Below, one piece after another: positions 4,563 to 16,327 of a stretch of 21,732 bases of DNA. The notes beneath the pieces are model-generated. The model saw nothing but the letters and a program-made list of their open reading frames with translations, was not told the DNA's origin and made no database searches. The stretch is taken from contig CAZFHY010000020.1 in NCBI GenBank assembly GCA_964519305.1, positions 1 to 21,732 on the forward strand. The letters run 5' to 3'. Position 1 is the stretch's first letter; the number at the start of each line of letters is the position of its first letter. The translations under genes were made by a program, and so were the position numbers. The DNA comes from Candidatus Undinarchaeota archaeon. Lineage in GTDB: Archaea > SpSt-1190 > JASMDC01.

Positions 4563-4667
4563 AGTTATCCTTTGTCTCTGGGAACTTAAAAAGCCCCAAA
4601 GGTTGGTTTGGTCACCGCCCTAGAAAACGTGTTCACTGGCGAGTGAGGATTCCTATACGATAATTAT

Positions 4668-5234
4668 CTATTCGGGACCGAGCACCTCGACCTTGATGTC
4701 GCTGGGATTCGGATTGCACCAGTGCCGGTCCGGGCACGCCGACAGGCCGACGGTCACATCACGCTCCGCACGCAGCACGACATAATCGCCCTTCTCTGCG
4801 GTCTTGTGGATCGTGAGCGCCATGTCCTCGTCCACGAACATGAAGAACGTGGCCGTGGGAGGGAGGGATGCCAGCGGGATGTCCAAGACACCAGAGAGCA
4901 TGTCGCGGCAGCCATCGAGCTCGCCCTCGTAAATTTTCGAGCGACAGCCGGGGAAGAGCAGGTCATGTGGCGCCTCAGTGTGGTTCTCCACAAGAGTGAG
5001 CACCGCTTCGCCAGTCCCGTCGTAGAGCGCCATGTCCAGGTCCAGTGTTGACACGAGCTTCGGGAAATCGAACCTTTTCAGCCCGTTCAGGTCCCGACTG
5101 AGCGCCTGATTGAAGTCCTTGAAGCAGAGGTCGACAACCTGACCACCCTCGAGGGTGGTGATCCTCAGCCGCTGACCCTTGGTAAGCTTGAATGCACGGG
5201 TCGTACCGTGCGCCAGGACCACGTCCTCTCCCAT
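4668..5234 (-). CDS. DUF1989 / urea carboxylase-associated family protein
   Basis: KGQRLRITTLEGGQVVDL, HDLLFPGC, GC, KGDYVVLRAERDVTVGLSACP and CN motifs typical of DUF1989. Start 5234 chosen because TTTAAA lies ~25 nt upstream on the minus strand. Confidence 0.85.
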   Translation of the reverse strand: MGEDVVLAHGTTRAFKLTKGQRLRITTLEGGQVVDLCFKDFNQALSRDLNGLKRFDFPKLVSTLDLDMALYDGTGEAVLTLVENHTEAPHDLLFPGCRSKIYEGELDGCRDMLSGVLDIPLASLPPTATFFMFVDEDMALTIHKTAEKGDYVVLRAERDVTVGLSACPDRHWCNPNPSDIKVEVLGPE

Positions 5235-5335
5235 GGAGGGAGGCCCTCGGTTAATATTTTTAAATGCCACCTTTCGGCCGGCCTGAAAATAACATTGAAA
5301 AACCTTTTTCTTCTTCCGAGAACCGGAGAACTGAA

Positions 5336-5992
5336 ATGGGTGACGCGGACGATGGAAAAATCAGGGTGCGCGAGACCAGTACGGAGCCGGACACCCAAGA
5401 AGAACCGAGACCAGAAAAGGCTACACGGGACGGCAAATCCGACACACGCATCGAAGACTTGAGGAATAGCCTCGATGAGCAGGCGCGCGAAAGCAAAGAA
5501 CAGCTCGACCGGCTAGTTCGTGTCCAGGCCGACTTCGATAACTTCCGCAAGCGTGTCGAACGCGATCGGGAGGAGTCCGTCAAGACCGCTGCCGAGGGCC
5601 TCATACGCAGGATCCTCGATGTGGTCGACAATCTTGAGCGTGCGATCGAGCACATGCGGTCCGACGAGCGTGCGCATGAGCACACTCGTGGCGTGGAGAT
5701 GATCAAGGACCAGCTCTTTGGTGTGCTCACCGTAGAAGGCCTCAAGGAGATGGAGTGCCTCGAAGAACCTTTCAATCCACTCTACCATGAGGCCATAGCT
5801 CGTGAGACTGTAGAAGGTATCGATGCGGAGACTATCTCGGAGGTGTTCCAGAAGGGCTACATCCTCAAGGGCAGGGTCATCCGCCACGCTCGCGTCAAGG
5901 TATCCGTACCGGGGTCCTCAGGAGACGGGTCCGGTAAAGAGAAATCATCGACTAATCCTAACGAATCACAGAAGAAAGACAAGGAGGAATGA
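5336..5992 (+). CDS. grpE: Nucleotide exchange factor GrpE
   Basis: [25 protein letters not shown] and FQKGY...[10 protein letters not shown] motifs. Directly upstream of dnaK. ATG 5336 follows an AT-rich promoter region and GGAG. Confidence 0.95.
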
Positions 5993-5994
5993 AC

Positions 5995-7839
5995 ATGGCT
6001 TCGGATAAAATCATAGGAATCGACCTCGGAACCACCTTCTCCGCTATGGCGGTGATGGAGGGCGGCAAGGCGACCATCATCCCCAACGCTGAAGGGGAGC
6101 GCACCACGGCCTCCGTGGTGGCGTTCACAAAGGATAAAGAGCGCCTGGTGGGGAGCATCGCCCGCCGACAGGCCATCGTGAATCCCGACCACACGGTGTA
6201 CTCGATCAAGCGTGAGATGGGCACTAAGCACACAGTGAAGATCGACGACAAGAAGTACACACCGCAGGAGATATCCGCAATCATCCTTCAGAAGCTCAAG
6301 AAGGATGCTGAGGCATATATCGGACAGCCCGTATCTCAAGTTGTACTCACCGTGCCTGCCTACTTCAACGACTCGCAGCGCCAAGCGACCAAGGACGCTG
6401 GCAAGATCGCCGGCCTAGAGGTCCTGCGCATCATCAACGAGCCAACAGCGGCCGCACTCGCATACGGTCTTGACAAGGAGGGCACTCAGACCGTGCTCAT
6501 CTTCGACCTGGGCGGTGGCACCTTCGATGTGTCGATCCTCGAGATCGGTGACGAGCTCTACGAGGTCAAGGCCACGAGCGGCAACACACGTCTGGGCGGC
6601 GATGACTTCGATGAGCGCGTCATGAACTGGCTGGCCGACGAGTTCAAGAAGCAGGAGGGTATCGACCTGCGCAAGGACAAGCAGGCCCTCCAGCGGCTCA
6701 AGGAAGCCGGGGAAAAGGCCAAGATCGAGCTGTCGAACGTCACGCAGACTACCGTGAACCTCCCGTTCATCACTGCTAATCAGGACGGCCCCAAGCACCT
6801 CAACATCACCCTCACCCGGGCGACGTTCGAGAAGCTCGTTGACGACCTCCTAGAGAAGACCATGGAGCCGATAAACGCTGCCCTCAAGGACGCGGAGATG
6901 ACCGAAAAGGACATCGACAAGATCCTGTTGGTAGGCGGTTCCACACGCATCCCCAAGGTGCAGGAGCTGATCAAGAAACGTCTGAAAAAGGATCCGTCCA
7001 AGGAGATCAATCCCGATGAGGTCGTCGCCATGGGCGCCGCTCTTCAGGGAGGAGTTCTCTCTGGCGATGTCAAGGACATAGTCCTTCTCGACGTCTCACC
7101 GCTCACCCTGGGTATCGAGACGCTAGGGGGTGTCCGGACACCGCTCATCGAGCGTAACACCACCATCCCCGTCACCAAGTCGGAGATCTTCTCCACGGCG
7201 GCAGACAACCAGACCAGTGTGGAGATCCACGTGCTCCAGGGAGAGCGCCCCATGGCGGGTGATAATATGACATTGGGCAAGTTCCACCTCGTAGGCATTC
7301 CGCCCGCACCCAGGGGTATGCCTCAGATCGAGGTCACCTTCGATATTGACGCCAACGGTATCGTCAACGTCTCTGCCAAGGACCTGGGGACTGGTCGGGA
7401 GCAGAAGATCACGATCACTGCCTCGACGAACCTTTCCAAAGATGAGGTGGACAACATGGTGTCCGAGTCCAAGGAATACGCGTCCCAGGACCAGGAGCGT
7501 AAGGAGAAGGTCGACCTTATCAACGAGTGCGACTCCCTCGGATACTCCATGGAGAAGACCCTCACTGATCTAGGTGACAAGGTGGACGCGGCCAAGAAGG
7601 AATCGGTAACTAAGGTCATCGAGGAACTGCGTCAGGCCGTCAAGGACGAGGACGTGGCCAAGATGAAGGAGCTGAAGGACAAGCTGATGCAGGAAATGCA
7701 TCAGATCTCGTCTGAGCTCTATCAGCAGGGAGCACCGGGCGCCGGCGCCCCCCCTCCGCCCGGAGGCGATCCGGGGGCCTACGGCAACAACGTCAATCCC
7801 GACGATGTTGTGGACGCCGACTACGAGGTAAAGGACTAG
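5995..7839 (+). CDS. dnaK: Molecular chaperone DnaK (Hsp70)
   Basis: [44 protein letters not shown] and [19 protein letters not shown] at 5982-5987 favours ATG 5995; ATG 5989 overlapping the grpE stop is an alternative. Confidence 0.99.
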
Positions 7840-7863
7840 GTCCGTCCCCCTGTGGGGCGGCCC
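7839..7863 (+). terminator. GC-rich intercistronic hairpin between dnaK and dnaJ
   Basis: CCGTCCC...GGGGCGG stem (one G-U pair) immediately after the dnaK stop. Function is inferred. Confidence 0.35.
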
Positions 7864-7882
7864 GGGAACCATGTGAACGGAC

Positions 7883-9112
7883 GTGGCCAAAAAGAACAAG
7901 CGGGACTATTATGAGGTGCTGGGCGTCCCACGCTCAGCCTCCAAAGAGGAGATCAAGAAGTCGTTCCGCCAGCTCGCCCGCAAGCATCACCCGGATGTGA
8001 ACCCTGAGGATCCGGAGGGTGCTGCCGAGCGGTTCAAGGAAGTGCGTGAGGCCTACGAGGTGCTCTCCAAGGACGAGAAGCGTGCCAGGTACGACAGGTT
8101 CGGGCATGCCGGTGTCGGCGGCCGCAGTGGTGCGGGAGGATTCGACTTCGGCGGGTTCGAGGACATCTTCGCTGGTTTCGGGGACATATTCAACGTGGGA
8201 GGGTTCGGTGGACGACGACGTCCGACCGGTCCCGTACGTGGGAACGACCTGAGGTACGACCTGGAGGTCACCTTCGAGGAGGCCGCGGCAGGGCTCGAGA
8301 CGACCATCCACGTACCCCGTCACAAAGAGTGCACTACCTGCAACGGTACTGGTGCAAAGCCAGGCACCGAGAAGCGTCGATGCACGCAATGCAATGGCAC
8401 GGGTAAGGTGGAGAACCGCCGACAGGCAGGATTCACGACTTTCGTGTCCGTTTCGGCCTGCCCGACCTGTCGTGGGGCCGGTGAGGTCGTTGACGATCCG
8501 TGCACCGAATGTGGGGGCGACGGCACCGTACAGGTAAAAGAGACAATCGATATCAAGATACCTCCCGGTGTGGACACAGGTTCGCACCTCCGGGTGCCGG
8601 GTCGTGGTGAGGCAGGTCATCGAGGGGGGCCCACCGGCGACCTCTACGTTGTAATCCACATCCGCGCCCACGACTTCTTCCAGCGGGACGGTTTTGATAT
8701 CTACTGTTCGATCCCCATCACGTTCGCTCTGGCGTCCCTTGGAGGGGAGACTCGGGTCCCCACCCTGGACGGGGACGCTATCATCAAGGTCCCGGCCGGA
8801 ACACAGAGCGGTCAGGTATTCTCCATGAAGGGAAAGGGCTTCCCACACCTACGCGGGGGTGGGCGGGGTGACCAGTACGTAAAAGTAGGTGTCACAGTAC
8901 CTCAGAAGATTTCCCCCACCCAGCGTCGCAAGCTCCGCCAGTTCGCGGCCTCTATGGGATGGGAGGCAGATGGCGTGATCTCCGAGGACGGGCTCGATGA
9001 TGCAGTTCGTATCGAGGCCGAACCGACCGATGGCGAGAGGAAGGGTTTCTTCGAACGGATCTTCGGCGGTTGGGGCGGCGGAGCGGACGAGAGATCGGAC
9101 GAAACGGCCTAA
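7883..9112 (+). CDS. dnaJ: Molecular chaperone DnaJ
   Basis: J domain with HPD, G/F-rich region, four CxxCxGxG zinc motifs, and GDLYV and GDQYV C-terminal domains. GTG start. Confidence 0.98.
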
Positions 9113-11330: not shown

Positions 11331-12017
11331 GTGAAGGGCACGGAAAATGAACGGGCTCGTATCTGTGCGGTGGTAGCCGCCGATACGGTCGATGCGATGG
11401 TGGACCGGGCCATGGAGGCAGTAGAGGACGCCGACCTCGTTGAGTTCCGTATCGACCATCTTATCTCTCTTGAGCAGCTTGATGGACTGAAGGAGTACGC
11501 CGCTCTCCCGGCGATCCTGACCCTCCGGTCCGCTACACAGGGCGGAAAGAGTGAACTGACAGGGGACGCGCGTCGGACGGTCCTGGAGCGCATTATACAT
11601 CTCGGACCGGCGTACATCGACCTTGAGTTCGGGAACGGTGACAATGAGCTGATTGCGACCGCCAAGGACGCTGGAGTGGGCACCATCCTCTCTTTCCACG
11701 ACTTCGAGGGTACTCCCGAAGGGATCTCGGACATCGCTCAGGAGATGGCGGGCACTGATGCCGACATCATCAAGCTGGTCACCACTGCTGGCTCATGGAG
11801 GGACGAGCTCGCGTTGCTGACGCTTGATCAACGATACACCGAGCGAGGAATCGTCGCCTTCTGCATGGGCGAACTCGGCGTGCTATCCCGCGTTCTCTGT
11901 CCACTAATCGGTGGGCGGTTCACATATGCCTTCGCGGGCAGGAGTACGGCCAATGGCCAGATTTCGTTATCAGAGCTACGAAATATGTTTAATAACGCTC
12001 ATTTGTACGGCGAATAA
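11331..12017 (+). CDS. aroD: Type I 3-dehydroquinate dehydratase
   Basis: ADLVEFRID, ILTLRS..QGG, YIDLE, ILSFHDF..TP, ADIIKLV (Schiff-base Lys), MGELG..SR, FTYA and GQI motifs. Confidence 0.92.
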   Translation: MKGTENERARICAVVAADTVDAMVDRAMEAVEDADLVEFRIDHLISLEQLDGLKEYAALPAILTLRSATQGGKSELTGDARRTVLERIIHLGPAYIDLEFGNGDNELIATAKDAGVGTILSFHDFEGTPEGISDIAQEMAGTDADIIKLVTTAGSWRDELALLTLDQRYTERGIVAFCMGELGVLSRVLCPLIGGRFTYAFAGRSTANGQISLSELRNMFNNAHLYGE

Positions 12018-12040
12018 CGTAGAAATATATACAATCCTAC

Positions 12041-12057
12041 CGGAAGGTATTTATACC
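12041..12057 (+). promoter_or_regulatory. BRE/TATA promoter of the leader-microprotein locus
   Basis: CGGAAGGTATTTATACC with TTTATA at 12050-12055, implying a TSS near 12080. Confidence 0.55.
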
Positions 12058-12080
12058 ATACCGTGCTAGACTATAGCATA

Positions 12081-12275
12081 ATCATTCCCGGAGCAGGACC
12101 ATATGATTGCGTATACAAGAGGAAAGGTATTGGTACCGATCTTTATTATTGCGCGCAATCATGCCTGCATGCGCTGGTTGTAGCGCAAGGGGATGATGAA
12201 AACAACGCCGCGATTGTTTTTTGACCCTCTTTCTAAGACGCCATACGGCTAACAGTCGTTCCCGTCGCGGCGTTG
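12081..12275 (+). ncRNA. Candidate structured leader RNA or sRNA (three-way junction plus T-tract hairpin)
   Basis: Hand-found helices 12081-12089/12189-12197, 12093-12097/12164-12168, 12103-12111/12154-12162 and 12170-12175/12182-12187. Hairpin 12199-12220 runs into T6. Alternative 11-bp pairing 12203-12213/12265-12275. I recognise no known family. Confidence 0.45.
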
Positions 12276-12351
12276 GGGGCGCACGCGCCGATATCCGAAC
12301 TCCACGAGATAACCGAGAACACGACAAGGACGACACAAGGAGGTAATGACT

Positions 12352-12489
12352 ATGTCACTTGAAGAGACCATGGAACTTATCATAAACGTCATGCAATTCG
12401 CTGACTCGTGGGAGAGCCGCCGCGCTCAGGCCCCGGAGGAACAGGCCAGTGCCCCGCTCTTCCTCGCATACGAAGGAATGCTCTCCTGA
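12352..12489 (+). CDS. 45-aa microprotein A: MSLEETMELIINVMQFADSWESRRAQAPEEQASAPLFLAYEGMLS (not in the ORF track)
   Basis: SD AAGGAGGT upstream; 30/45 aa identical to the adjacent paralog with mostly synonymous differences. In-frame ATG 12346 is an alternative start. Confidence 0.85.
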   Translation: MSLEETMELIINVMQFADSWESRRAQAPEEQASAPLFLAYEGMLS

Positions 12490-12527
12490 GCAGACACACA
12501 CCATCAACGACACAAGAGGAACAGATC

Positions 12528-12665
12528 ATGTCAATGGAAGAGACTATGGAGCTGATCATCGACGTAATGCAGTTCGCCGACTCATGGGAGAGCCAGCGAT
12601 ACAATGAGGACACGCCGATGGCCGAGACTCCTCTCCTACTCGCCTATGAGGGCTTGCTCACCTAG
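12528..12665 (+). CDS. 45-aa microprotein B: MSMEETMELIIDVMQFADSWESQRYNEDTPMAETPLLLAYEGLLT
   Basis: SD GAGGA upstream, same length as and paralogous to microprotein A. The 85-aa ORF-track version has a spurious N-terminal extension. Confidence 0.85.
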   Translation: MSMEETMELIIDVMQFADSWESQRYNEDTPMAETPLLLAYEGLLT

Positions 12666-12680
12666 GCGAGTTATGTTCAT

Positions 12681-12797
12681 GTGCCGGGGCGGGACTCCCC
12701 TCCTTCCCCTCCCCGCCCCGAGCACTCCCTATGCGGTGGTCCGTGCGACCACACCGGACCGCCGCACCTCTTTCTCGGGCTTGGTCGGGCACCGACC
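12681..12797 (+). terminator. Three GC-rich hairpins downstream of the microproteins (3' UTR structure/terminator)
   Basis: Stems 12681-12693/12712-12725 (one bulge), 12732-12743/12755-12766 (12 bp, one G-U) and 12783-12788/12792-12797. Confidence 0.55.
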
Positions 12798-12832
12798 CCT
12801 TAATAAAGATTGGCCCCATCCTCCTTTTCAGG

Positions 12833-13564
12833 ATGCATGAGGTGTCCAAGGTCGCTAGGGCTTGGCTTGTCGTGTTTACGGCGGTCGCACTCATCCTTAC
12901 CCTAGCAGTTGCAGATGACGTTCTTGTTGAGTGCGAGGACCTGCAGGGGCGTGATTTCGACCAGTGCGTCAGGGACGCGATCGCGACCATCCCGCTAAAC
13001 CTGTCCAAGGAGATGCTCGGTTCCTGCGCGACCGTCCAGGACGAGTACCTCAGGGCAGAGTGTATAGCCATCATCGCGTATCGCCTCCTCCCCGTCGACG
13101 CGAACCGTGCACTCGACGCATGCAACTCGATCGAATCGGAGGAGCATCGGAGCGCATGCCTCGGCCTCATCGCTGCTCGACGTGCGGAGAACGATCCTGC
13201 TCTTGTCGCACAGGAGAGCGCACGACTGCCCTCCGATGAGGCCCGCATCTGGCTTGTGGCGCTCCTTCGCGATTACACTGACAGACATGGCGCTGCCAAA
13301 GGGCTCGGGTTGTGCACAACCTTCGCTCCCTCGCTCCAGCGTTATTGTGTCGACCTGAGCGTATCCTGGCTGAACACGTCCCACGCAGATCTGTGCGAGG
13401 GGATCCAGTTTCCGGACTTGAAACGACGATGCAGGGCGCGAACATCGGGGGACCTCTTATCCGAGCCCCAAGCTGATGGCACGACCTTCGCTGTTTTCGT
13501 ACTCCTGATCGTCTCTGTTGGAACACTCGGGATAATGCACATCGAGGTCAAGCACTACTACTGA
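12833..13564 (+). CDS. Secreted, C-terminally anchored Cys-repeat surface protein
   Basis: Signal peptide MHEVSKVARAWLVVFTAVALILTLAVA, five C-x10/11-C pairs and a C-terminal TM helix FAVFVLLIVSVGTLGIM. TTAATAAA lies ~30 nt upstream of ATG 12833. Confidence 0.75.
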   Translation: MHEVSKVARAWLVVFTAVALILTLAVADDVLVECEDLQGRDFDQCVRDAIATIPLNLSKEMLGSCATVQDEYLRAECIAIIAYRLLPVDANRALDACNSIESEEHRSACLGLIAARRAENDPALVAQESARLPSDEARIWLVALLRDYTDRHGAAKGLGLCTTFAPSLQRYCVDLSVSWLNTSHADLCEGIQFPDLKRRCRARTSGDLLSEPQADGTTFAVFVLLIVSVGTLGIMHIEVKHYY

Positions 13565-14601: not shown

Positions 14602-15642
14602 CTAGGCCCCGACCAAGGTCTCGTAGAGGTCGATGATGCCTGCTCCGTACTCGTGATCGTTGTACTCGGCAGGCTGTCGTGCCCCTCCCTTCATAGCGCC
14701 CATGATGTCGTCAGGCGTCATGCTCGTGTCCTTGCCCTTGAGCAGAGCGGCCGCACCGGCTGCGTGCGGAGACGCGAACGAAGTACCGGACCCAAGCCGG
14801 TAGCCACCACCCACCTTGGGCAGGGTGACCTTCTCCCCTGGTGCCATGAGGTCGAGACCGGTCGTCTCCCCGTAGCATGAGAACGAGGACCGTTTCTCGC
14901 CACTGTTCACCGAGCCGACGCTTAGGTTCCAGTCGTAGGCCGAGGGATAGTGCCAGATGTGGTCGGTACCGTAGTTACCAGATGAGCACGCCACCGTGAT
15001 GCCCGCATCGTGCACACGCTTGTACACTTCCTTCTCTGCAGAGCTTTCCCGGCCATACCTCCCGAACGAGCAGTTGATCACGTCCACGCCAAGGTCCATG
15101 GCCTTGTCGATGCCCTTGAGCGTGGTCGAGAACTTCGTGTCCGAGGCATTTGTCCCGAACACCTTGATCGAGTAGACCTCTACGTCAGGAGCGACCTGTG
15201 CCACCAGGCCCGCAGTGCCTGTGCCGTGACCGTGCGTATCGCGCACGTTGTCAGAATCATCGAGCACGTTGTAGCCGTGGACGTCCATACCGTTAAAGAC
15301 CTCATGGGAAAAGTCGCATCCCGTATCGACGACAGCTACTTTCACTCCGGCCCCGGTATAACCTGCTTCGTGGGCCTCTTGCACTCGGAGCATATCGAGG
15401 TTCCATCCGGACTCCGGTACGTCCGTCGGTTCATCGGGCTGCTCCTCAAGCTCCTCGAGGTGAACGTCGAAGTCCTCCACTACCATTCCGTAGGCCTTGA
15501 GGGCGGTGTCGTCCTCAGCCCGTACCAGGGCGGCCCGCAGGTGGGTATAGGTCTCGACGATTTTCGCACCCGTGGTCTCGATCTCCTTAAAGGATTTTGA
15601 GGCCACACCATCTCTCGCAAGGACGATATATTCTCGCACCAT
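14602..15642 (-). CDS. Subtilisin-like S8 serine protease with short I9-like propeptide, no signal peptide
   Basis: Catalytic triad VAVVDTG / HGHGT / SGTSFASPH and oxyanion SSGN. BRE/TATA GGAAAAGATTATATA upstream on the minus strand. Confidence 0.95.
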   Translation of the reverse strand: MVREYIVLARDGVASKSFKEIETTGAKIVETYTHLRAALVRAEDDTALKAYGMVVEDFDVHLEELEEQPDEPTDVPESGWNLDMLRVQEAHEAGYTGAGVKVAVVDTGCDFSHEVFNGMDVHGYNVLDDSDNVRDTHGHGTGTAGLVAQVAPDVEVYSIKVFGTNASDTKFSTTLKGIDKAMDLGVDVINCSFGRYGRESSAEKEVYKRVHDAGITVACSSGNYGTDHIWHYPSAYDWNLSVGSVNSGEKRSSFSCYGETTGLDLMAPGEKVTLPKVGGGYRLGSGTSFASPHAAGAAALLKGKDTSMTPDDIMGAMKGGARQPAEYNDHEYGAGIIDLYETLVGA

Positions 15643-15703
15643 ACTGTCCCGGTCCCAGCGAGAATCTGCGGGTCAGCCGGTATATAATCTTTTCCATAAG
15701 ACG

Positions 15704-16327
15704 TCAGGACACCATCCCCGCAAGTGTCCCCGCGACCGATGGAAAAGCCACTTCGACACCGCCGCGCTTGTGCGGTAGGAAGTATGCACGCTCCCGGTCC
15801 ACGATGAGGATGTCGGCTTCCCCCTCGACCTGACGCACCGTGACTGGTATACGCTCTGATACCTCGTTGAGCGTCCGTCGGAACTTCTTCTCCGTCCCGT
15901 TGGCATTGAGCAGGATGAGCTCACGCTTGGCCGAGCGCATCATGTCCCGGAGGCGGCCCCGGGCGACCTCCTTCATGGTGTGGTACCACACGCCTGCCGT
16001 TTCAGGGGACTCACGGGACATCGATCCGGCCCGCTGGACGAAGTCGTGCTTGAGCTCGTCCTTCTCCCGTCGCCGGACCTCAAGGAGGCGTTCGATGCAC
16101 AAGTGCGGCTCCTCGGCCCGGTAGACGAAGGGGGAGCGGACCGAGCGGGTAACGAAGCCGATGGACTCCAGGCCTCTGGCCGCCTCGTAGCACTTATTGC
16201 TCGGAATGTCGCCATATCTGGCGATGCGTGATGCCGTCAGGTCGCCGTACCTCAGGAGGGTGAGGTACACACGCGCCTGGTACGTTGTGAGCCCTAGCTC
16301 GTTCAGGTTCGCGATGAGCTGCTTCAT
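15704..16327 (-). CDS. TrmB family transcriptional regulator
   Basis: LNELGLTTYQARVYLTLL..G.LTAS.IA....IP..K.Y.....L...GFV N-terminal HTH and ILIVDRE C-terminal motif. Confidence 0.9.
   Translation of the reverse strand: MKQLIANLNELGLTTYQARVYLTLLRYGDLTASRIARYGDIPSNKCYEAARGLESIGFVTRSVRSPFVYRAEEPHLCIERLLEVRRREKDELKHDFVQRAGSMSRESPETAGVWYHTMKEVARGRLRDMMRSAKRELILLNANGTEKKFRRTLNEVSERIPVTVRQVEGEADILIVDRERAYFLPHKRGGVEVAFPSVAGTLAGMVS

What the first reader, a model, noticed from the sequence alone, without database searches (positions are those of the whole stretch)
12330..12665. Unannotated tandem pair of 45-aa microproteins with conserved ends and a hypervariable core
Seen: two equal-length ORFs (12352-12489 and 12528-12665), each preceded by the identical 10-mer ACGACACAAG (12330-12339 and 12507-12516) and an SD. 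Residues 1-22 are 20/22 identical, with 8 synonymous and 2 non-synonymous codon differences. Residues 23-34 are only 2/12 identical, and residues 35-45 (PLxLAYEGxL) are 8/11 identical with 5 synonymous differences. This pattern indicates purifying selection at protein level. Inference: conserved-variable-conserved architecture resembles leader-core-follower peptide precursors. It could equally be a two-motif binding microprotein with a flexible acidic linker. No modifying enzyme is adjacent, and I do not recognise the family.
Basis: partly seen in the sequence, partly recalled or inferred. Interest (0 to 1): 0.82.

Follow-up and report, generated by a model that had tools for sequence, protein, structure and literature searches.

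The report
Orphan tandem acidic microprotein gene pair
Two neighbouring 45-codon genes in an uncultured marine archaeon are real, strongly conserved protein-coding genes with no known relatives, most likely small helical binding proteins rather than precursors of modified peptides.

Summary
ORF1 is 12352-12489 and ORF2 is 12528-12665. Each has 45 codons, its own Shine-Dalgarno site and the same upstream 10-mer.

Both are coding. Between the paralogs, synonymous sites of the conserved ends are saturated (pS 0.73) while replacement sites barely differ (pN 0.069). Only this frame is open in both units.

The family is an orphan:
- No hit in Pfam, NCBIfam, PHROGs or PADLOC.
- One hit, its own cluster, among 1.84 billion representative proteins.
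- Matches in 2 of 401 archaeal genomes read in six frames: this one and a same-genus relative.

The "hypervariable core" holds only between paralogs. Between species, ORF1's core is 12/12 identical and ORF2's is 9/12.

AlphaFold2 gives a confident N-terminal helix (pLDDT above 90) and a weaker C-terminal helix. The peptides are very acidic, have no Cys or His and no signal peptide. No modifying enzyme lies in the window.

Best reading (0.5): cytoplasmic helical microproteins that act by binding a partner. A leader-core-follower precursor is unlikely (0.05).

A 334-nt upstream spacer with a 70-nt invariant block, and contigs from RNA libraries covering it and ORF1, suggest a regulated transcript.

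The parts
12018..12351 (+). Conserved non-coding spacer upstream of ORF1: a presumed promoter plus long 5' leader. It has 31 substitutions and no indel against the sister species.
   Evidence: Identity is 90.7%, the highest of 13 intergenic stretches (0.615-0.893 for the others). There are 0 gaps in 334 nt, and the candidate ORFs on both strands are broken by stops in G001. The stretch is unique in its own genome. No Rfam match.
12141..12210 (+). 70-nt invariant block within the spacer. It starts with an AT-rich TATA-like TTTATTATT (12142-12150). A T6 run follows at 12217-12222.
   Evidence: It is the third-longest perfect-identity run in the 14.8-kb alignment. The TATA-like and T-run readings are mine; archaeal promoter and terminator rules are recalled, not tested.
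12330..12339 (+). 10-mer ACGACACAAG before ORF1, part of the duplicated unit.
12337..12344 (+). Shine-Dalgarno site AAGGAGGT of ORF1, 7 nt before the ATG.
   Evidence: Read. Complementary to the 16S 3' end ...GATCACCTCCT.
12352..12489 (+). ORF1: 45-aa acidic microprotein (pI 4.05, net charge about -6.5).
   Evidence: Against the ortholog dN is 0.009 and dS 0.155. AF2 gives helix 3-26 with pLDDT above 90.
12507..12516 (+). Second copy of the 10-mer ACGACACAAG before ORF2. It has one mismatch in G001.
12516..12519 (+). Weak Shine-Dalgarno site GAGG of ORF2, 8 nt before the ATG.
   Evidence: Read.
12528..12665 (+). ORF2: 45-aa acidic microprotein (pI 4.05, net charge about -9.5), paralog of ORF1.
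   Evidence: Against the ortholog dN is 0.069 and dS 0.203. AF2 gives helix 3-27 with pLDDT above 90.
12681..12725 (+). G+C-rich hairpin 1 after ORF2. The stem is kept in G001 while the loop carries a 3-nt deletion and substitutions.
12732..12777 (+). Hairpin 2 (12732-12766) followed by the pyrimidine tract ACCTCTTTCTC. Presumed transcript end.
   Evidence: The 12660-12800 fold has z -3.64, and 0 of 200 shuffles fold as well. The hairpin is kept in G001. The terminator role is inferred.

Best explanation
ORF1 and ORF2 are two anciently duplicated, separately translated genes for 45-residue cytoplasmic microproteins. The family is so far seen only in this genus-level lineage.

Each protein has three parts:
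- A 20-25-residue acidic amphipathic N-terminal helix that is nearly invariant.
- A Pro-containing acidic linker of about 12 residues that is specific to each paralog.
- A short hydrophobic C-terminal motif, PL(F/L)LAYEG(M/L/F)L.

Proposed mechanism: they work by protein-protein contact. The invariant hydrophobic residues of the N-helix and the C-motif would form the binding surface, either on a larger partner or on each other. The paralog-specific linker would tune what each copy does.

They appear to be expressed from one unit: a long conserved leader, then ORF1, ORF2 and two terminator-like hairpins.

Shown: coding status, purifying selection, narrow distribution, predicted N-helix, absence of linked enzymes. 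Inferred: cytoplasmic location, binding function, extent of the transcript.
For: Coding status:
- Paralog ends have pS 0.731 against pN 0.069 (ratio about 0.03). The core has pS 0.71 against pN 0.69.
- In the ends, 16 of 22 differences are at codon position 3.
- Only one of six frames is open in both units.
- Both ORFs, both stops and the 176-nt spacing are kept in G001.
- Among the 15 variants that read laying listed inside the ORFs, ORF1 has 6 synonymous and 1 non-synonymous; ORF2 has 4 and 4, with 3 of the 4 non-synonymous ones in the linker. The tool did not show 30 further variants.

Both copies are constrained:
- Ortholog dN/dS is 0.06 for ORF1 and 0.34 for ORF2.
- ORF1 is 96.4% identical in nucleotides, against 87.4% for the whole 14.8-kb alignment.

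Protein features:
- AF2 predicts helix 3-26/27 with pLDDT 91-93 in both paralogs, and a C-terminal helix with pLDDT 60-71.
- The hydrophobic moment of residues 3-22 is 0.33. It is reached by 84 and 125 of 2000 shuffles.
- Variable positions 12 and 22 lie on the polar face.
- pI is 4.05, against a proteome median of 5.46 over 1,747 long frames.
- There is no Cys or His and no hydrophobic N-terminus.

No enzyme, exporter or mobile-element gene was found among the 24 window ORFs scanned against Pfam.

Expression hints:
- The ORF1 SD is complementary to the 16S 3' end.
- Contigs from three RNA libraries of three studies tile 12096-12518 at about 86-97% likeness.
Against: - No partner is identified and no homolog of known function exists, so 'binding protein' rests on composition and a predicted helix only.
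- The C-terminal helix and any hairpin packing are low-confidence (pLDDT 60-71, pTM 0.42-0.43).
- The amphipathicity is moderate, not extreme.
- RNA-library contigs may contain DNA, were found with this locus and come from relatives. They show neither strand nor transcript ends.
- Synonymous divergence of both ORFs (dS 0.155 and 0.203) is below that of all 13 neighbouring genes (0.32-0.64). Some constraint therefore acts on the RNA or DNA itself, and the peptide may not be the whole story.
- SD-like motifs are only modestly enriched before long ORFs in this genome: 35% against 23-25% for control motifs.
Confidence: 0.5

Rival explanations
1. Leader-core-follower precursors of processed, modified or secreted peptides (RiPP-like or signalling peptides). 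Enzymes would be encoded elsewhere, or processing would use the S8 subtilase 2 kb downstream.
For: - Tandem small ORFs with conserved ends and a core that has diverged to saturation between paralogs.
- A subtilase-family gene at 14602-15642 on the minus strand.
- Two YcaO-family genes elsewhere in the genome, on contigs C1 and C4.
Against: - No modifying enzyme, RiPP recognition protein or exporter was found among the 24 window ORFs scanned.
- No Peptidase_C39 match in the genome.
- The cores (RRAQAPEEQASA and QRYNEDTPMAET) have no Cys, few Ser/Thr and no Gly-Gly type cleavage site.
- ORF1's core is 12/12 identical in the sister species, and only synonymous variants are listed there in further relatives.
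- The peptides are strongly acidic with no signal sequence.
- YcaO genes are also found in 5 of 14 control genomes, so their presence says little.
Confidence: 0.05
2. The locus acts mainly at RNA level, as a regulatory or dual-function RNA or an attenuator-type leader. Translation of the small ORFs would be a means of regulation rather than a source of functional peptides.
For: - The upstream spacer is the best conserved of 13 intergenic stretches, with a 70-nt invariant block, no indels and a T6 run.
- dS of both ORFs is lower than in all 13 neighbours.
- RNA-library contigs cover the leader and ORF1.
Against: - Between the paralogs, synonymous sites are saturated while the encoded ends stay 28/33 identical. 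This selects on the peptide, not on the RNA.
- The leader fold is not more stable than shuffles: z -1.30 on the plus strand and -0.57 on the minus strand.
- No Rfam family matches.
- Two strong hairpins and a separate TATA-like box stand between ORF2 and the next gene.
Confidence: 0.1
3. A degenerate fragment or mimic of an ankyrin repeat (helix 2, loop, helix 1). It would act as a decoy for an ankyrin-type interaction.
For: - A profile of the family matches a designed ankyrin protein (7b4t_A) at E 0.0031. The match is ETPLlLAYEGlL against ETPLHLAAYEGHL.
- By eye, the N-helix resembles the ankyrin second helix. The ankyrin consensus is recalled, not tested.
Against: - Per-stretch E-values are 9.6 and 60, so only the sum over repeats passes.
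- The only other PDB hits up to E 10 are one more DARPin fusion and a TEM-1 beta-lactamase chain.
- Pfam ankyrin models gave nothing at E up to 10.
- The own genome has no Ank_2 match, while 5 of 14 control genomes do.
- The loop is about 5 residues longer than in an ankyrin repeat (my reading).
Confidence: 0.04
4. Not functional genes: a chance or decaying duplication, or a fragment of a larger repeat protein.
For: Very narrow distribution: 2 of 401 genomes. No named homolog.
Against: - dN/dS is far below 1 in the paralog and ortholog comparisons.
- Both units keep start, stop and length in two species at 87% genome identity.
- The units lie in different frames, 176 nt apart, each with its own stop.
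- No longer fused form turned up: 147 candidates, none at E up to 1.
Confidence: 0.03

Closest known systems
RiPP precursor peptides with leader, core and follower or recognition sequences (e.g. cyanobactin or bottromycin type; recalled, not from a call)
   Same: Small tandem ORFs with conserved flanks and a middle part that differs between paralogs.
   Different: - No linked enzyme, protease or exporter.
- No modifiable-residue pattern or cleavage motif.
- The core is conserved between species.
- Acidic and predicted helical over most of its length.
Small helical regulatory proteins that inhibit or modulate a larger protein: Sda of Bacillus subtilis (46 aa helical hairpin) and small proteins of Methanosarcina mazei and Haloferax volcanii. 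The examples are recalled. General context comes only from the listings and abstracts of PMC7217052 and PMC8765459.
   Same: Size (about 45 aa), predicted helix-linker-helix, no cofactor-binding residues, stand-alone gene with its own ribosome-binding site.
   Different: No sequence or fold match to any solved small protein: Foldseek gave 0 hits and the best VIA Z was 4.7, to generic helices. No partner is known. Present as a conserved paralog pair.
Tandem leaderless amphipathic peptides: staphylococcal PSM-beta 1/2 (44 aa) and enterocin L50A/B (recalled)
   Same: Two adjacent paralogous genes of about 44-45 codons, each with its own SD, no signal peptide, helical.
   Different: Those peptides are membrane-active and hydrophobic or cationic, and are exported by dedicated transporters. 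These are net -6.5 and -9.5, and no transporter gene is in the window.
Ankyrin repeat (TPLHLAA..G motif)
   Same: The C-terminal motif (S/T)(A/T)PL(F/L)LAYEG(M/L/F)L aligns to the first ankyrin helix of a DARPin.
   Different: Not significant per repeat. No Pfam Ank hit. A single truncated unit, with no ankyrin proteins in the genome.

Membership tests
Protein-coding gene (as opposed to non-coding repeat) | Open frame kept in all copies and relatives | tested here: met
   In both units only one of six frames has no stops. Both ORFs are intact in G001 and in loci L011-L013.
Protein-coding gene (as opposed to non-coding repeat) | Excess of synonymous over replacement change | tested here: met
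   Paralog ends have pS 0.73 against pN 0.069. Ortholog dN/dS is 0.06 and 0.34.
Protein-coding gene (as opposed to non-coding repeat) | Translation observed (ribosome footprints or peptide) | not testable with these tools
   Only contigs of RNA libraries could be laid. They show presence, not translation.
RiPP precursor (leader-core-follower) | Modifying enzyme, protease or exporter encoded nearby | tested here: not met
   Pfam scan of 24 window ORFs found none apart from an S8 subtilase 2 kb away on the other strand. No C39 peptidase in the genome. The LanC search is uninformative because no control genome matched.
RiPP precursor (leader-core-follower) | Core with modifiable residues and a defined cleavage motif | tested here: not met
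   The cores have no Cys and 1-2 Ser/Thr. There is no GG/GA motif at the leader end (read).
RiPP precursor (leader-core-follower) | Core varies between orthologs while the ends are kept | tested here: not met
   ORF1's core is 12/12 identical and ORF2's 9/12 between species. ORF1 core variants in further relatives are synonymous.
RiPP precursor (leader-core-follower) | Processed or modified product detected | not testable with these tools
   Needs peptidomics.
Any described protein family (Pfam, NCBIfam, PHROGs, PADLOC) | Profile match | tested here: not met
   0 families at E up to 10 in all four libraries.
Ankyrin repeat | Match to ankyrin profiles, and a 33-residue helix-turn-helix-loop unit | tested here: inconclusive
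   No Pfam hit. Weak summed match to a DARPin at E 0.0031, with per-stretch E-values of 9.6 and 60. No ankyrin fold is listed among the structure matches, which does not exclude it.

The most novel reading that the evidence does not exclude
The pair are precursors of a new kind of archaeal processed peptide. The invariant N-terminal helix and C-terminal motif would be recognition handles, and the paralog-specific 12-residue middle the released product. It would be made by unlinked enzymes (for instance the nearby subtilase), with expression gated by the ultraconserved upstream leader.
Probability: 0.05. Interest if true: 0.8.

Novelty: new variant of a known kind. Interest (0 to 1): 0.4.

Why it matters
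Small proteins under 50 residues are the least charted part of archaeal proteomes. This pair carries clean evolutionary evidence of function: replacement sites are kept while synonymous sites are saturated. It has no relative in billions of database proteins.

It sits in a 3.6-Mb genome placed in a phylum whose other 15 held genomes outside this genus are 0.6-1.2 Mb. It is preceded by one of the most conserved non-coding stretches of the region.

If a partner were found, it would add a lineage-specific regulator to a poorly known archaeal group. As it stands it is a well-supported orphan gene pair, not a new mechanism.

Tried and rejected
**Co-folding**
- Complex prediction of ORF1 with ORF2 returned 'no answer' (score 0.03 against a mark of 0.32; controls were not run). 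This is no evidence either way.

**Structure and feature searches**
- Foldseek against the PDB: 0 matches.
- VIA-align wide: best Z 4.7, all generic long helices.
- ESM Atlas: best score 0.77 to unnamed clusters for ORF2, and no usable named hit for ORF1.

**Wider homolog searches**
- Longer or fused forms: 147 candidates, none at E up to 1.
- Viral contigs: 112 pattern matches, none a relative.
- Own genome, hmmsearch --max over 92,460 six-frame pieces: only the two ORFs; the next best E is 1.9.
- Weak class-level hits in G004, G006 and G013 (E 0.05-0.1) were rejected. The G004 frame has no start codon and the G006 match lies inside a 131-residue frame. G013's match lies in a 482-residue frame. 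All three vanish at E up to 0.01.

**RNA and signal scans**
- Rfam: nothing at E up to 1 on 11900-12900, nor at gathering score on the whole window.
- No tRNA.
- The sigma-70 and intrinsic-terminator scan found nothing and is not designed for archaea.
- The leader fold is no more stable than shuffles.
- Candidate small ORFs in the upstream spacer (53 aa on plus, 84 aa on minus, 19 aa) are broken by stops in G001.

**RNA libraries**
- Contigs of the three RNA libraries did not cover ORF2, the end of aroD or the next gene.
- Small-share runs say nothing about habitat.

**Other ideas tested**
- Ankyrin idea: see the rivals.
- RiPP enzymes elsewhere in the genome: 2 unlinked YcaO genes, 0 C39, and 0 LanC with no control genome matching.
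- SD motif enrichment is only modest.
- Recent gene conversion as the cause of the conserved ends is rejected, because synonymous sites in the ends are saturated.
- A longer ORF2 (85 aa from the GTG at 12408) and a 47-aa ORF1 (ATG at 12346) are rejected. Paralog similarity starts at the 45-aa starts, the upstream open frame differs in length in G001 (75 against 86), and the SD lies 1 nt from the 12346 ATG.

**Literature**
- PMC10936187 and PMC13473441: passages seen through 'find' only. Neither was seen to mention this peptide family or a large-genome lineage of this phylum.
- All other papers: search listings and abstract starts only.
- I searched no paper for the peptide sequence itself, so I make no claim that it is absent from print beyond these searches.
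- Supplements are closed. MAG size tables there could bear on the genome-size remark.

Full report
**Observation.** The window holds two ORFs on the plus strand, 12352-12489 and 12528-12665. Each has 45 codons plus a stop.
- Residues 1-22: 20/22 identical, with 8 synonymous and 2 non-synonymous codon differences.
- Residues 23-34: 2/12 identical.
- Residues 35-45: 8/11 identical, with 5 synonymous and 3 non-synonymous differences.

The 10-mer ACGACACAAG stands at 12330 and at 12507. ORF1 is preceded by AAGGAGGT (12337-12344), 7 nt before the ATG. This is complementary to the 3' end of the genome's own 16S rRNA...GGATCACCTCCT. ORF2 has only GAGG, 8 nt before its ATG. The two starts lie 176 nt apart, so the units are in different frames. 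Each has its own stop (TGA, TAG).

**Are they coding?** Yes, with high confidence.
- In the conserved ends, 16 of 22 nucleotide differences between the paralogs fall on codon position 3 (binomial P 1.8e-4).
- By Nei-Gojobori counting, the ends have pS 0.731 (saturated) against pN 0.069. The core has pS 0.708 against pN 0.690.
- The duplication is therefore old, and the ends have been held by selection on the peptide. Recent gene conversion is excluded.
- Of the six frames, only the named one has no stops in both units.

**Distribution.**
- In the window's genome (G000, 3.63 Mb, 42 contigs) there are just these two copies. This holds for the tool search and for my hmmsearch --max over 92,460 six-frame pieces, where the next best E is 1.9.
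- The genome's phylum and class hold 17 genomes. Only G000 and the same-genus G001 carry the pair. Three weak hits (E 0.05-0.1) are not genes.
- A six-frame search of 401 archaeal genomes (268 genera) found the pair in 2 of 401.
- A profile search of 1,835,955,588 representative proteins gave one hit, the family's own cluster.
- The 5.8-billion-protein index gave three unnamed clusters of 3-4 members. No longer or fused form appeared.
- Genome contigs gave one relative, L011, whose record title reads 'Candidatus Undinarchaeales archaeon'.
- Metagenome contigs gave two, L012 and L013, with the same peptide pair as G001. Viral contigs gave none.
- Pfam, NCBIfam, PHROGs and PADLOC give nothing at E up to 10.

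**Orthologs.** The window and L011 are collinear over 14.8 kb at 87.4-87.5% identity.
- ORF1 differs by 5 of 138 nt and one residue (S22T). Its 12-residue core is unchanged.
- ORF2 differs at six residues (3, 22, 26, 28, 29, 43). Three are in the core and all are conservative.
- Two more ORF2 variants in the protein index vary at the same places.
- The core is thus diverged between paralogs but held within each paralog. It is not hypervariable.
- dN/dS between species is 0.06 for ORF1 and 0.34 for ORF2.
- dS of both ORFs (0.155 and 0.203) is lower than in all 13 neighbouring genes (0.32-0.64). I cannot explain this fully. High expression with codon constraint, or an RNA-level role, are candidates.

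**Transcription unit (mostly inferred).**
- The 334-nt spacer between aroD (stop at 12017) and ORF1 is 90.7% identical between species. That is the highest of 13 intergenic stretches. It has no indel and 31 substitutions.
- It contains a 70-nt invariant run (12141-12210), the third longest in the alignment.
- The run begins with a TATA-like TTTATTATT and is followed by a T6 run at 12217-12222 (read).
- Candidate ORFs in the spacer are broken in G001. The spacer is unique in the genome and matches no Rfam family. It does not fold better than shuffles.
- After ORF2 come two G+C-rich hairpins and a pyrimidine tract. The fold has z -3.64, and 0 of 200 shuffles fold as well. The stems are kept in G001 while one loop carries a deletion and substitutions.
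- The next gene has its own TATA-like box (TTAATAAA, 12800-12807) 33 nt before its ATG at 12833.
- Contigs from three RNA libraries of three studies (X19, X20, X18) tile 12096-12518, that is leader plus ORF1, at about 86-97% likeness. This is a weak hint of expression in relatives. Such libraries can hold DNA, and contigs show neither strand nor ends.
- A 611-nt contig of run X9 matches in three collinear pieces, with unlike stretches of nearly the same length between them. Read by hand in ORF2's frame, its loose end keeps FADSW. More diverged relatives with the same layout therefore exist.

**The proteins.**
- Both are very acidic: pI 4.05, net charge about -6.5 and -9.5. The proteome median pI is 5.46 and the 10th percentile 4.52, over 1,747 long frames.
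- They have no Cys or His and no hydrophobic N-terminal segment.
- AlphaFold2, with a shallow 6-row alignment, gives helix 3-26/27 at pLDDT 91-93 in both. A second helix (29-44 or 33-44) has only pLDDT 60-71. Mean pLDDT is 77.7 and 75.6.
- Residues 3-22 are moderately amphipathic: moment 0.33, reached by 84 and 125 of 2000 shuffles.
- The positions that vary (12 and 22) lie on the polar face.
- The C-terminal motif is simply hydrophobic.

**What it most likely is.** I read them as cytoplasmic helical microproteins that act through protein contacts. The invariant hydrophobic residues of the N-helix and the C-motif would form the interface, and the paralog-specific acidic linker a tuning element (confidence 0.5).

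The precursor (leader-core-follower) reading gets 0.05:
- No enzyme, protease domain of the usual kinds or exporter was found among 24 scanned ORFs, save an S8 subtilase 2 kb away on the other strand.
- There is no C39 peptidase in the genome.
- The cores lack modifiable residues and cleavage motifs.
- The cores are conserved between species.

An RNA-level reading gets 0.1. It explains the low dS and the leader, but not the saturated synonymous sites with kept residues between paralogs. A weak likeness of the C-motif to the first ankyrin helix (E 0.0031 to one DARPin, per-stretch E 9.6 and 60) is not backed by Pfam or by any ankyrin gene in the genome.

**Verdict.** This is a real, well-constrained, lineage-restricted pair of microprotein genes of a new family. 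The kind (small helical orphan proteins) is familiar. The function is unproven, and the RiPP-like idea that made the finding look striking is not supported. Interest is moderate (0.4).

Noticed in passing
window 12018-12351: The spacer upstream of ORF1 is the best conserved of 13 intergenic stretches against the sister species (90.7%, no indel). It contains a 70-nt invariant block (12141-12210) that begins with a TATA-like TTTATTATT, followed by a T6 run at 12217-12222. There is no Rfam match, no conserved ORF and no second copy in the genome. It could be a promoter with regulator sites, a structured leader or attenuator, or a separate small RNA.
   Followed up: partly
whole genome G000 (window = contig C20): G000 is 3.63 Mb (99.83% complete, 4.29% contamination) and its congener G001 about 3.8 Mb. 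The other 15 genomes of the same phylum and class held here are 0.6-1.2 Mb. The congener's record is titled 'Candidatus Undinarchaeales archaeon'. A genome of free-living size in a phylum known for reduced genomes deserves its own look, covering both placement and possible bin chimerism.
   Followed up: partly
window 12352-12665: Synonymous divergence of both microprotein genes between species (dS 0.155 and 0.203) is below that of all 13 neighbouring genes (0.32-0.64), including dnaK. This is unexplained.
   Followed up: partly
window 12833-13564 (+): The next gene encodes a 243-aa protein (the ORF scanned started one codon later, 242 aa). It has a hydrophobic N-terminus, a hydrophobic C-terminal anchor and five Cys pairs spaced 10-11 residues apart (read). 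It has no Pfam match and its own TATA-like box at 12800-12807.
   Followed up: no
window 4664-4769: The longest perfectly conserved run (106 nt) in the 14.8-kb alignment with the sister species lies at the 3' end of the DUF1989 gene (4668-5270, minus strand). The cause is unknown.
   Followed up: no
run X9, contig laid on window 12113-12557: A 611-nt contig from a sediment library matches the leader, ORF1 and ORF2 in three collinear pieces, with diverged stretches of nearly equal length between them (214 against 213 nt, and 104 against 96 nt). This points to a more distant relative with the same layout. Its sequence could not be fetched.
   Followed up: partly
window 5264-9112 (+): A grpE-dnaK-dnaJ gene row lies 3 kb upstream. 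Also in the window are a TrmB-family regulator next to an S8 subtilase (14602-16327, minus strand), and families typical of haloarchaea (HVO_A0114, DUF7714).
   Followed up: no
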